A DNA stretch of 64,000 nt. It comes from the human T2T-CHM13v2.0 reference genome, Homo sapiens. The stretch lies in NCBI RefSeq assembly GCF_009914755.1, contig NC_060936.1; one strand, given 5' to 3'. Shown piece after piece: positions 15,875 through 18,115 of this stretch. The position numbers and the translations under genes were made by a program. The notes below the pieces were generated by a model. That model was not told the origin of the DNA and ran no database searches. It worked only from the letters and a program-made list of their open reading frames with translations. The first letter of the stretch is position 1. Every line of letters starts with the position of its first letter.

Positions 15875-16120
15875 AAAACCACTGACCATCACATCTAGTC
15901 AAACTTGAGTAAATTCATGTTGACTACATGAAGAACATTACAGGGAAGTGAGGAATCTCAACAGTTAAGCCAAGCAAGACTGTCAGAGCTTAAAAAGTTA
16001 AAAAGAGGTTGGGGATCTGGTTCTCAGTCTCTTTCTGGGCTACCTTATAGCAATTTGAGGCTCCGTCATCAGTTTCTGCAAGGTTTCAAAGATCCAGGAG
16101 AAGCTTAGTGTTGTGTCAAG

Positions 16121-16609
16121 ATGCTGATGGACCCATCACAGAAGTTTAATCCAACCTCCATCCCAGAGTCTTCACAAATGCTCACCAAAGAAAATTCCCA
16201 GGACGATTCAGGGGCCTCTCAAATCTGCTCCGAGACGTTGACAAAAAACCTTAATAACTTGACTGTCAATGCTAGTAACGAATCCCCTTCCCCTCTACCG
16301 GAATGTTCACTCCATGAACAGTCTACAAGAGCAACAATCCTCAGGGAAATCACAGATCACTTGCTTTACAGGAGGAGAGGAGTAAGAACATTGCTGTCTG
16401 TGCAGAGAGAGAGGATGGCAAGATTCAGATACATGTTACTCGGCGGAGTTCATCCGCATGAAAGAATACTAACAAACACTGGGCTTAAGGGAGTTAAGAA
16501 GGAATCAAGACCATTCAGATGTCCCTGCAGTTTCTGCTTGTTTAACAGATGGGATCCTTCTGAGAATGCTAGAATAGGGAATTTTGACACCAAGCCACTT
16601 CAGCCATAA
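16121..16609 (+). CDS. DPPA3: Intact DPPA3/STELLA-like ORF (162 aa; parental-type start Met at 16127) in a retrocopy; expression unproven
   Basis: MDPSQKFNPT...RRGVRTLLSVQRERMARFRYMLLGGV...ESRPFRCPCSFC...WDPSENARIGNFDTKPLQP* is collinear end to end with human DPPA3 as recalled (about 75% identity by eye). No stop or frameshift. Homology is secure; coding function is uncertain. Confidence 0.6.
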   Translation: MLMDPSQKFNPTSIPESSQMLTKENSQDDSGASQICSETLTKNLNNLTVNASNESPSPLPECSLHEQSTRATILREITDHLLYRRRGVRTLLSVQRERMARFRYMLLGGVHPHERILTNTGLKGVKKESRPFRCPCSFCLFNRWDPSENARIGNFDTKPLQP

Positions 16610-17067
16610 ACCTTATTCTTGTACCTTTTTTTCTTGCTGGTAATTTTATATAGCAGATTGAGAAAGCTACTCTATGCTACTATAGACTATACACCAATAC
16701 TTTTGATAATGAGTTCTAGGATGTATTTTTCTTCTTGTATCTTTTTCTTCCCGCTATGATACTAGTAATTTATAAGGGATCTGTGTAATTTGAATGTATT
16801 TGAATAACTTTAGCTCTACTGTTTGATTTGACCCAAAGAAGCCAAGACGACATAAGTATTCCCATGTGTCTTAGAAGCCCAAAGTCAATGAGATGAAACC
16901 CAACATCAAGAAACTGAAGCAAAGTTACTTGTGGATAAAGAAAGCATTAGGTAGTTTGGCTATAGCATAATAATTAGATTTTCTGGCTTTCAAAATTTTG
17001 GATTGCAATCACAGCAAACTTTGTTATTTTTACAGTTTTCAGTACAAAAAGGAGTTTATATAGAAAC

Positions 17068-17073
17068 AGTAAA
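17068..17073 (+). terminator. Variant polyadenylation signal AGTAAA of the DPPA3 retrocopy
   Basis: About 20 nt upstream of the A remnant and 3' TSD. Confidence 0.6.
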
Positions 17074-18115
17074 GTTGGCATTTGAGTACCTTTAAAAAAC
17101 AAAGTTAAAAAGAAAGACAAGCTTTTATTTCCTGCTACAACTACTGAAGATGCAAAAAAGGTAAGGGCCATTAGTTAGCAACCAGTGTCTATTATTCCTC
17201 TTTCTGCTGTCATTGTTGAAAGATGAAAGTTCATGCAAGCAGGCTCCATTCTTGCACATGACCTAATTATCATATTTAGTTGAATGTAAAAACCCTAGTT
17301 TTGCTGATGAATCTGAAACATCACAGCCAATCACTTTGCCTTCCCATTTTCCTGTCTAACATCAACTGATTAAGATTGGGAGTATCTTCTGTTTGTTAAA
17401 TGAAGCACAATTCTTCTGGATGATATCTTTATATTTTATTTTTTTGTTGTGATAAAATATATAATACCTAAAATGTACCTTTTTAACCATTTTTAAGTTT
17501 ACAATTCAGTGGCATTAAGTACTTTCACATTGTTCTGCAACCATCACCACTATCTATCTTCAGAACTTTGTCAACATCACAAAAAGAAACTCCCTATCTA
17601 TTAAACAATATGTCCCATTTCCCTTCCCCCCAGACCCTGACAATCACCATTCTACTTTCTGCTTCTGTGACTTTGCCTATTTTAAGTACCTCACATGAAT
17701 GGAATCGTATAGTATTTGTCCTTTTGTGACTGGCTTATTTCATTTAGCACAATGTCATCAAGGTTCACGCATGTCATAGCGTGTATCTGAATTACCTTCC
17801 TTTTTTAAGACGGAATAATATTCCACATTATATGTACATACCATATTTCATTTATCCATTCATCTGTCAATGGACACTTGGCATGCTTCCACCCCTTGGC
17901 TAGTCTGAATAGTGCTGTTCTGAACATGGCTTTGCAAATATCTGTTCTAGCCCTCATTTTCAATTCCTTTGGTCATCTACCCAGATGTGGGATTGCTGGA
18001 TCATATGGTAATTATATGTTTTAGTTTTTGAGAACACGCCATACCATTTTCCATAGCAGCTGCAGCATTCCCACAGCAATGCACAAAGGTTCCAATTTCT
18101 CTACATCCTCACTAA

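What the first reader, a model, noticed from the sequence alone, without database searches (positions are those of the whole stretch)
15994..17113. Intact DPPA3/STELLA retrocopy: candidate uncharacterised retrogene
Seen: an intronless 1.1-kb mRNA copy with a perfect 13-bp TSD, a TT/AAAA target, a decayed A tail (so probably not very recent) and an uninterrupted 162-codon ORF ending at the parental-type C-terminus (DTKPLQP*). Established: DPPA3 is a maternal, naive-pluripotency and PGC factor. It binds the UHRF1 PHD finger and displaces UHRF1, limiting DNMT1-dependent methylation. Primates carry many DPPA3 retrocopies, normally filed as pseudogenes. Inference: about 39 replacements plus one extra codon against recalled human DPPA3, with no stop or frameshift, suggests maintained coding capacity, i.e. 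a second STELLA-like UHRF1 antagonist. I cannot tell whether this locus already has a pseudogene name.
Basis: partly seen in the sequence, partly recalled or inferred. Interest (0 to 1): 0.9.

Follow-up and report, generated by a model that had tools for sequence, protein, structure and literature searches.

The report
Open-frame DPPA3 retrocopy shared by apes
This is the already-named processed pseudogene DPPA3P5, an ape-wide copy of the germline gene DPPA3/STELLA whose reading frame is still open; this is mild, unproven evidence that it might still encode a protein.

Summary
Window 15994-17113 is an intronless copy of DPPA3 mRNA (positions 20-1100, 90.8% identity). It has an exact 13-bp target-site duplication and an open 162-codon frame. 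RefSeq already names it DPPA3P5.

Of the 39 replacements, half to two-thirds arose in the parent gene, not in the copy. Pairwise dN/dS is 2.4. On the copy's own branch dN/dS is about 1-1.7, and the chance of staying stop-free is 41-57%.

New here: gorilla, Bornean orangutan and a gibbon have intact 160-aa orthologues. These form a clade that mirrors the species tree, so the insertion dates to the hominoid stem. Given that the locus was picked for its open human frame, the other three lineages staying open has p about 0.03-0.14. The 21-residue UHRF1-contact core is unchanged in all four (p 0.01-0.09). No paper mentions DPPA3P5 or its unique peptides, and no promoter or sense transcript is annotated.

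Verdict: most likely a neutral relic (about 0.65). A retained STELLA-like retrogene stays possible (about 0.25).

The parts
15994..16006 (+). 5' target-site duplication (AAAGTTAAAAAGA), preceded by TT and an A run (L1 endonuclease-type target)
   Evidence: exact 13-nt direct repeat; the only 2 matches in the window; 0 of 100 shuffles reached 2
16008..16120 (+). 5'UTR-derived part of the retrocopy (parent mRNA positions about 20-138)
   Evidence: aligned to the parent 5'UTR with 15 mismatches in 119 columns
16121..16609 (+). Open reading frame of 162 codons plus stop. The ATG at 16121 is an upstream in-frame start; the parental ATG is at 16127.
   Evidence: ORF listed; Pfam PF15549 PGC7_Stella E 1.4e-31 (110.1 bits, cut-off 32.3)
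16379..16441 (+). Codons for the 21-residue UHRF1-contact core (G-VRT-helix; corresponds to human DPPA3 residues 84-104). It differs from human DPPA3 only at K95R and L99F, and both are the macaque states.
   Evidence: contact residues named in PMC11707192, section 9; 0 of 27 variable columns fall here among the four ape P5-type proteins
16610..17093 (+). 3'UTR-derived part of the retrocopy
   Evidence: 21 mismatches in 482 aligned columns (4.4%)
17068..17073 (+). Altered polyadenylation signal: AGTAAA where the parent mRNA has AATAAA
   Evidence: parent position 1070 A, P5 G; 5 of 6 older copies have A, the sixth is gapped
17094..17100 (+). Remnant of the poly(A) tail (AAAAAAC), partly templated by the parent's terminal A run
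17101..17113 (+). 3' target-site duplication

Best explanation
DPPA3P5 is an L1-mediated processed copy of a nearly full-length DPPA3/STELLA mRNA. It inserted on chromosome 12 in the stem lineage of apes, after the split from Old World monkeys and before gibbons branched off. It brought no parental promoter and lies antisense inside an intron of the lncRNA LOC643339.

Since insertion it has changed at about the neutral rate: roughly 2.3-3% per site on the human path, with no indel. Its short ORF has escaped stops and frameshifts largely by chance.

It looks very different from human DPPA3 (39 replacements) mainly because the parental gene went through rapid amino-acid replacement in apes. The copy therefore preserves a protein closer to the monkey form.

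Shown here: the retrocopy anatomy, orthologues in three other apes, the faster parental lineage, and the lack of detectable purifying selection on the whole protein. Inferred: that it has no function.
For: Anatomy.

Divergence from the parent by region: 5'UTR 15 of 119, CDS 53 of 480, 3'UTR 21 of 482.

Pairwise counts: 47 nonsynonymous against 6 synonymous differences, dN/dS 2.4.
- Binomial p is 0.03 to 0.0005, depending on the expected synonymous fraction.
- Nonsynonymous-site divergence of 47/367 against 3'UTR 21/482 gives Fisher p 1e-5.

P5's own branch:
- 3 synonymous and 10-18 nonsynonymous changes, dN/dS 0.95-1.74, not different from 1 (binomial p 0.28-0.88).
- 3'UTR changes are symmetric: 11 on P5 and 10 on the parent.
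- All 4 internal indels between the two sequences polarise to the parent lineage, and none to P5.
- Simulated chance of no stop with the ATG kept, after 13-21 substitutions: 0.41-0.57.
- Joint chance of an intact ORF on the human path, including frameshifts: 0.02-0.11. That is ordinary for one locus picked out of thousands of retrocopies.

P5 clade of four apes:
- About 34 amino-acid changes in 160 codons.
- Human-gorilla 10, human-orangutan 14 and human-gibbon 19 differences. By my recalled genome-wide divergences, these are at or above the neutral expectation.

Literature and annotation:
- 0 papers contain DPPA3P5.
- 0 papers contain either unique peptide.
- Six papers contain 'DPPA3P*'. The two I opened concern DPPA3P2 only.
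- No human protein record identical to this ORF is among the 49 named hits.
- No annotated promoter or sense transcript lies at the locus.

Human-lineage changes consistent with decay:
- The poly(A) signal is AGTAAA.
- I39T and S43N fall in the segment corresponding to the predicted nuclear-export signal of human STELLA (residues 34-47).

A control: an old DPPA3 copy on chr10 has a 193-codon open frame although its core is scrambled. An open frame alone therefore proves little.
Against: - The ORF is intact at exactly 160 aa in gorilla, Bornean orangutan and Hylobates moloch as well.
- Under neutrality the whole four-species clade staying open has p 0.0006-0.015. The three non-human branches alone have p 0.03-0.14.
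- None of the 27 variable columns among the four proteins falls in the 21-residue UHRF1-contact core. This gives p 0.010-0.089 by mutation model.
- The longest invariant run (28 residues, 79-106) coincides with that core, with scan p 0.091.
- Other young intact retrocopies do carry changes in this segment (human DPPA3P1 and two monkey '-like' proteins), and so does the genuine siamang gene.
- A dN/dS near or above 1 does not exclude function, because the parental gene itself evolves with an excess of replacements.
Confidence: 0.65

Rival explanations
1. DPPA3P5 is, or was for much of ape evolution, a protein-coding retrogene. It would encode a second STELLA-like protein that binds the UHRF1 PHD/TTD-PHD module through the conserved VRT-helix core. 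This protein would keep the pre-acceleration, monkey-like contact residues (Arg and Phe where human STELLA has K95 and L99).
For: - Intact 160-aa orthologues exist in 3 further ape lineages, and the clade mirrors the species tree (supports 96/92, 97/91, 99/96).
- ORF retention has p 0.03-0.14 given the open human frame, and 0.0006-0.015 unconditioned.
- There are 0 changes in the 21-residue UHRF1-contact core, p 0.010-0.089.
- It matches Pfam PGC7_Stella above the cut-off.
- The core aligns to crystallised human DPPA3 peptides (8xv7/8xv8, 8wms), with differences at only K95R and L99F within residues 84-104.
- Precedents: DPPA3P2 is highly expressed in oocytes and naive stem cells, and a mouse Dppa3-derived retrogene is cited in the literature (reference entry only).
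Against: - dN/dS is about 1-1.7 on the human path, and amino-acid divergence is at a neutral level across the clade.
- No promoter, transcript, paper or peptide evidence was found.
- The p-values are modest. The core test was one of several features I examined.
- No P5-type protein record appeared for chimpanzee, bonobo, Sumatran orangutan, siamang or Nomascus. Clustering at 90% identity and the 41 hidden candidates make this absence uninformative either way.
- The human lineage carries changes in the export-signal segment and in the poly(A) signal.
Confidence: 0.25
2. The locus acts at the RNA level only, for example as a transcript that competes for or regulates factors acting on DPPA3 mRNA. 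This would explain the well-kept 3'UTR.
For: The 3'UTR-derived part is only 4.4% diverged from the parent, against 11% for the coding part.
Against: - The 3'UTR difference is split evenly between the two lineages (11 and 10 substitutions). It also matches synonymous-site divergence (6/107 against 21/482, Fisher p 0.61). So the 3'UTR is at the neutral level and the coding part is the outlier.
- The parental 3'UTR has 1 CpG against 16 in the coding part.
- No transcript is annotated.
Confidence: 0.05
3. The open frame and the low 3' divergence result from gene conversion between DPPA3P5 and the parental gene, both on chromosome 12.
For: Both loci are on chr12, and divergence is uneven along the copy.
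Against: - The loci are about 85 Mb apart.
- The ape P5-type proteins form their own clade, separate from the ape parental genes.
- The coding part is the most divergent region, not a homogenised one.
- Synonymous and 3'UTR divergences agree.
Confidence: 0.02

Closest known systems
DPPA3 / STELLA / PGC7 (parent gene, chr12p13)
   Same: - Same Pfam family.
- Same VRT motif, following helix and C-terminal Cys-rich/DPSENARIGN segment.
- 120 of 159 residues identical in the parental frame.
   Different: - Intronless, with no parental promoter.
- 39 replacements, plus the Lys6 codon that the human parent has lost, plus 2 extra N-terminal codons.
- Arg and Phe at the UHRF1-contact positions where human STELLA has K95 and L99.
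- 82.4% identical to macaque DPPA3, against 79.7% for human DPPA3.
DPPA3P1 (chrX) and DPPA3P2 (chr14), the other intact-ORF human DPPA3 retrocopies
   Same: Processed copies with uninterrupted frames. DPPA3P2 is reported as highly expressed in MII oocytes and naive stem cells (passages seen).
   Different: - They are much younger: 96.9% and 98.6% identical to the parent mRNA, against 90.8%.
- They branch inside the great-ape parental clade, so their open frames need no explanation.
- No expression report exists for DPPA3P5.
Older DPPA3 processed pseudogenes (DPPA3P6, P7, P9, P11, P12; unannotated copies on chr3, chr10 and others)
   Same: Same origin by retroposition of a germline-expressed mRNA.
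   Different: They are 71-81% identical to the parent mRNA and carry stops, frameshifts or a scrambled core.
Expressed or coding copies of pluripotency genes: NANOGP1 (passages seen); mouse Dppa3-derived retrogene, Elliman et al. 2006 (reference entry only)
   Same: Copies of germline or pluripotency genes that were filed as pseudogenes yet are transcribed or coding.
   Different: Those cases rest on expression and functional data. None exists for DPPA3P5. NANOGP1 is a tandem, unprocessed duplicate.

Membership tests
L1-mediated processed retrocopy | Colinear with the spliced mRNA, no introns | tested here: met
   parent mRNA 20-1100 aligns in one block across the three exon junctions
L1-mediated processed retrocopy | Flanking target-site duplication | tested here: met
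   exact 13 nt, only 2 matches in the window, 0 of 100 shuffles
L1-mediated processed retrocopy | 3' poly(A) tail | tested here: inconclusive
   only AAAAAAC remains, and part of it is templated by the parent's 3' end
L1-mediated processed retrocopy | TT/AAAA-like endonuclease target | tested here: met
   the duplicated site begins in an A run directly after TT (15990-15997)
PGC7/Stella/DPPA3 protein family (PF15549) | Profile match above the curated cut-off | tested here: met
   110.1 bits against a cut-off of 32.3, residues 3-148
PGC7/Stella/DPPA3 protein family (PF15549) | VRT motif and helix that occupy the H3 pocket of the UHRF1 PHD | tested here: met
   the core is present, with 2 of its 21 residues differing from human DPPA3 (K95R, L99F)
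PGC7/Stella/DPPA3 protein family (PF15549) | Actual binding and displacement of UHRF1 | not testable with these tools
   Needs calorimetry or co-immunoprecipitation and chromatin fractionation
Functional (protein-coding) retrogene | ORF intact in orthologues of other species | tested here: inconclusive
   intact in the 3 apes with a named record. No record was seen for chimpanzee, bonobo, Sumatran orangutan, siamang or Nomascus. No primate DNA was available.
Functional (protein-coding) retrogene | Purifying selection (dN/dS below 1) on the retrocopy lineage | tested here: not met
   0.95-1.74 on the human path; amino-acid divergence across the clade is at a neutral level. The exception is the invariant 21-residue core (p 0.010-0.089).
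Functional (protein-coding) retrogene | Transcription from an acquired promoter | not testable with these tools
   no annotated promoter or sense transcript; no report in the papers searched.
Functional (protein-coding) retrogene | Translation (ribosome footprints, peptides) | not testable with these tools
   0 papers contain the two unique peptides.

The most novel reading that the evidence does not exclude
DPPA3P5 is a roughly 20-25-million-year-old, ape-specific STELLA paralogue that has been kept translatable in at least four ape lineages. Its UHRF1-binding core has stayed frozen in the monkey-like state (Arg/Phe at the K95/L99 contact positions) while the parental gene underwent a burst of replacements. 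Apes would then carry two UHRF1 antagonists of different affinity. The weak UHRF1 inhibition reported for human STELLA would be only half of the picture.
Probability: 0.2. Interest if true: 0.7.

Novelty: already known. Interest (0 to 1): 0.3.

Why it matters
As it stands, this is an annotated processed pseudogene, and its open frame needs no special explanation. Two points could still interest people working on DNA-methylation reprogramming.

1. The locus is a dated molecular fossil. It shows that DPPA3 replaced many residues in apes, including two UHRF1-contact positions. This fits the published finding that human STELLA binds UHRF1 weakly (PMC11707192).
2. If the copy were expressed in oocytes or early embryos, it would supply a second STELLA-type protein, closer to the ancestral form. 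It would also confound read mapping, knock-down and antibody experiments aimed at DPPA3.

Tried and rejected
Polarising by old retrocopies. I polarised the parent-versus-P5 differences with six old dead retrocopies. This suggested a 32:13 split in the coding part. I then found that 4 of the 32 'parental' sites are parental CpGs where P5 and the old copies share the decay product. I also found that monkey-outgroup tests give a milder asymmetry: 13-20 against 9-15, not significant for the human pair in 6 of 6 outgroups. The asymmetry is significant for the gibbon pair in 3 of 3 outgroups and for the orangutan pair in 2 of 3. I therefore state 'half to two-thirds' rather than 'three quarters'.

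Gene conversion as the cause of the low 3'UTR divergence. Rejected, because synonymous and 3'UTR divergences agree and the 3'UTR changes are symmetric.

The longest invariant run as a stand-alone statistic. It gives only p 0.091. The pre-defined contact core gives 0.010-0.089.

Literature.
- 0 papers contain 'DPPA3P5'.
- 6 papers contain 'DPPA3P*'. I opened two of them, and both concern DPPA3P2.
- Searches for DPPA3 with retrogene/pseudogene/primates, with positive selection/UHRF1/evolution and with rapidly evolving/primate found no paper on this locus or on a primate DPPA3 selection test. The nearest item is one table row ranking DPPA3 among the five most diverged proteins on the gibbon branch (PMC8664490, passage seen).
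- A search on Stella retropseudogenes listed only papers that cite Pain et al. 2005. I did not read that paper.
- Supplementary tables, which could hold expression or Ribo-seq values for DPPA3P5, were closed.

Not available: primate genome DNA, sequencing reads and population variant data.

Recalled inputs. The indel:substitution ratios used (1/8 to 1/20) are assumptions. My own young DPPA3 copies give 8 gap openings per 129 mismatches. Published pseudogene values and the genome-wide ape divergences I compare with are recalled, not taken from a call.
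Full report
What is there.

Window 15994-17113 holds a processed copy of DPPA3 mRNA on the + strand.
- The spliced RefSeq mRNA of the parent has 1100 nt in four exons at chr12:7726072-7732205 (DNA fetched).
- It aligns from position 20 to 1100 in one block: 90.84% identity over 1092 columns, with 89 mismatches and 5 gap openings (alignment printed).
- The copy is bounded by an exact 13-nt direct repeat at 15994-16006 and 17101-17113. 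These are the only two matches in the 64-kb window, and 0 of 100 shuffles reached two.
- The upstream repeat starts in an A run that follows TT.
- Only AAAAAAC is left of the A tail.
- The longest ORF, 16121-16609, has 162 codons and matches Pfam PGC7_Stella (E 1.4e-31).
- In the parental frame, 39 of 158 comparable codons are replaced.
- One extra codon (Lys6) is also present in DPPA3P1 and the older copies. It is missing only from the present parent and DPPA3P2. Two further N-terminal codons come from an upstream in-frame ATG.
- RefSeq already calls the locus DPPA3P5.

Family context.
- RefSeq lists 11 DPPA3 pseudogenes in this assembly.
- A six-frame search found 37 matches. Five cover the whole protein, and three of those have no internal stop: DPPA3P5, DPPA3P1 on chrX and DPPA3P2 on chr14.
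- Identity to the parent mRNA forms a ladder: 98.6% (P2), 96.9% (P1), 90.8% (P5), then about 81%, 76% and lower.
- All copies at 81% or below carry stops, frameshifts or a scrambled core.

Where the 39 replacements come from.
- Divergence from the parent is uneven: 5'UTR 15/119, coding 53/480 and 3'UTR 21/482.
- Pairwise there are 47 nonsynonymous and 6 synonymous differences, so dN/dS is 2.4.
- The deficit of synonymous changes has binomial p 0.03 to 0.0005.
- Nonsynonymous-site divergence exceeds 3'UTR divergence with Fisher p 1e-5, while synonymous-site and 3'UTR divergence agree at p 0.61.
- At least one of the two lineages therefore took an excess of replacements.

Three approaches say the faster lineage is mainly the parent.
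1. Six old dead copies as outgroups. They assign 32 coding substitutions plus the 3-nt deletion to the parent and 13 to P5, with 8 ambiguous. 3'UTR substitutions are symmetric at 10 and 11. Four of the 32 are CpG sites where parallel decay could mislead.
2. The maximum-likelihood protein tree. The path from the split to human DPPA3 is 0.241 changes per site, and the path to human P5 is 0.113.
3. Three-sequence relative-rate counts with six monkey DPPA3 outgroups.
   - Human pair: parent-unique 13-20, P5-unique 9-15, unresolved 7-14. Parent-unique is the larger in 5 of 6 outgroups, and none is significant.
   - Orangutan pair: 19-21 against 8-11 (p 0.2, 0.043, 0.036).
   - Gibbon pair: 25-28 against 7-9 (p 0.0029, 0.00051, 0.009).
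   - Human P5 is 82.4% identical to macaque DPPA3, against 79.7% for human DPPA3.

A published table also ranks DPPA3 among the five most diverged proteins on the gibbon branch (PMC8664490, passage seen).

The copy's own branch.
- Counting on parsimony-assigned states gives 3 synonymous and 10-18 nonsynonymous changes. That is dN/dS 0.95-1.74, not different from 1.
- No indel polarises to P5 anywhere in its 1.08 kb.
- Simulated sequences with 13-21 substitutions keep the ATG and stay stop-free in 41-57% of 5000 runs each.
- With assumed indel:substitution ratios of 1/8 to 1/20, the joint chance of an intact frame on the human path is 0.02-0.11.
- That is unremarkable for a locus chosen because its frame is open.

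Orthologues.
- The word search returned 49 named proteins out of 50 candidates. A further 41 candidates of unnamed source were withheld.
- The best three hits are NCBI 'DPPA3-like' proteins: gorilla (94%), Pongo pygmaeus (91%) and Hylobates moloch (88%). Each is 160 aa.
- With human P5 they form a clade (support 96/92) whose inner branching follows the species tree (97/91, 99/96).
- That clade is sister to the ape parental genes, but this support is weak (80/72, branch 0.0056).
- The monkey '-like' proteins fall inside the monkey clade.
- The insertion therefore dates to the ape stem. This agrees with about 2.3% 3'UTR change on the P5 path, judged against my recalled lineage divergences.
- No P5-type record appeared for chimpanzee, bonobo, Sumatran orangutan, siamang or Nomascus. 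Given clustering at 90% identity and the hidden candidates, this says little.

Is there constraint?
- ORF retention: using the clade's branch lengths (34.3 amino-acid changes in all), the chance that no lineage acquired a stop, start loss or frameshift is 0.0006-0.015. For the three branches off the human path, which is the fair test given how the locus was picked, it is 0.03-0.14.
- Core invariance: 27 of 160 columns vary among the four proteins, and none lies in the 21 residues corresponding to human STELLA 84-104. That segment holds the UHRF1 contacts named in PMC11707192 (sections 8 and 9 read). The probability is 0.010-0.089 depending on the mutation model. The longest invariant run, 28 residues, sits exactly there, with scan p 0.091.
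- Other young intact copies do show changes in that segment (human DPPA3P1, two monkey '-like' proteins), and so does the siamang gene itself.
- These are hints, not proof.
- Against them, overall amino-acid divergence in the clade is not reduced: human-gorilla 10, human-orangutan 14 and human-gibbon 19 differences.
- The human lineage changed two residues in the segment matching the predicted export signal. It also changed AATAAA to AGTAAA.

Function-related anatomy.
- Within the core, P5 differs from human DPPA3 only at K95R and L99F. Both are the states of macaque DPPA3.
- The paper reports that human STELLA binds the UHRF1 PHD with Kd 818 nM, against 91 nM for mouse. It attributes part of the difference to K95 replacing a proline.
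- P5 has Arg there, not Pro, so there is no reason to expect mouse-like affinity. Any difference from human STELLA is untested.

Expression.
- The copy lies antisense in an intron of the lncRNA LOC643339.
- No promoter or sense transcript is annotated. The nearest listed elements are a silencer fragment at 18436-18613 and a hESC enhancer at 54973-55893.
- 0 papers contain DPPA3P5.
- 0 papers contain the two unique peptides.
- Reports of expressed DPPA3 pseudogenes concern DPPA3P2.
- Supplementary tables were closed.

Verdict.
- The object is real and correctly described, and it is already annotated.
- It is most likely a neutrally evolving relic whose apparent divergence is largely the parent's doing (confidence about 0.65).
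- A retained, translatable STELLA paralogue in apes is not excluded (about 0.2-0.25). Nucleotide alignments from the ape assemblies and unique-read expression data would settle it cheaply.

Noticed in passing
Parent gene DPPA3, G000 chr12:7726072-7732205 (L031), compared with window 16121-16609: The parental gene shows an excess of amino-acid replacements in apes. Pairwise dN/dS against P5 is 2.4. The parent path on the protein tree is about twice the P5 path. The relative-rate excess is significant for gibbon and orangutan. DPPA3P5 serves as a dated fossil of the earlier, monkey-like protein. Two UHRF1-contact residues (K95, L99) are among the parental changes.
   Followed up: partly
L005 1372-1953 (-), = G000 chr10:120.459-120.460 Mb: This is an old DPPA3 retrocopy with no RefSeq gene within 2 kb. 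It keeps a 193-codon open frame (GTG start). Its helix after VRT is scrambled, and its C-terminus runs into a poly-T/Alu-like sequence. It shows that an open frame alone is weak evidence.
   Followed up: partly
L025 (chr10:74120957-74121058, inside MRPS16) and L027 (chr20:60897295-60897396, just past MRPS16P2): A fragment matching the DPPA3 C-terminus and 3'UTR (parent mRNA about 492-936, 78-79% identity) lies within the MRPS16 gene. It appears again next to the MRPS16P2 retrocopy, as if an old DPPA3 fragment had been carried along in MRPS16 mRNA.
   Followed up: no
L011/L012 (chr3:51.466 Mb, DCAF1 intron), L004 (chr8:135.79 Mb, ZFAT), L016 (chr1:183.9 Mb, C1orf21), L021 (chr9:100.5 Mb, SPIN1): Further DPPA3-derived copies overlap only their host genes in genes.tsv, with no DPPA3P gene listed there. 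All have stops.
   Followed up: no
L028, L029 (chr14:13.4 and 13.6 Mb), L030 (chr22:16.4 Mb); four chr9 sites at 39-44 and 78.7 Mb: Short DPPA3 fragments recur at several sites on chr14, chr22 and chr9, as nearly identical matches of the same part of the query (64% over residues 5-48; 74-78% over residues 135-161).
   Followed up: no
window 16121-16129: The first ATG of the human ORF is an in-frame start two codons upstream of the parental ATG. At that position the parent has a C within a CpG. The three ape proteins are annotated from the parental ATG. One green-monkey DPPA3-like protein begins with a similar two-residue extension.
   Followed up: partly
window 18436-18613 and 54973-55893: RefSeq functional elements lie near the copy. 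A silencer fragment sits 1.3 kb downstream, and a 'NANOG-H3K27ac hESC enhancer' sits 38 kb downstream. No link to the retrocopy was tested.
   Followed up: no
L017/L019/L022 (chr19:60.247 Mb, DPPA3P8): The DPPA3P8 locus matches the parent mRNA in pieces on both strands. This suggests an internal inversion or a rearranged or duplicated insertion.
   Followed up: no
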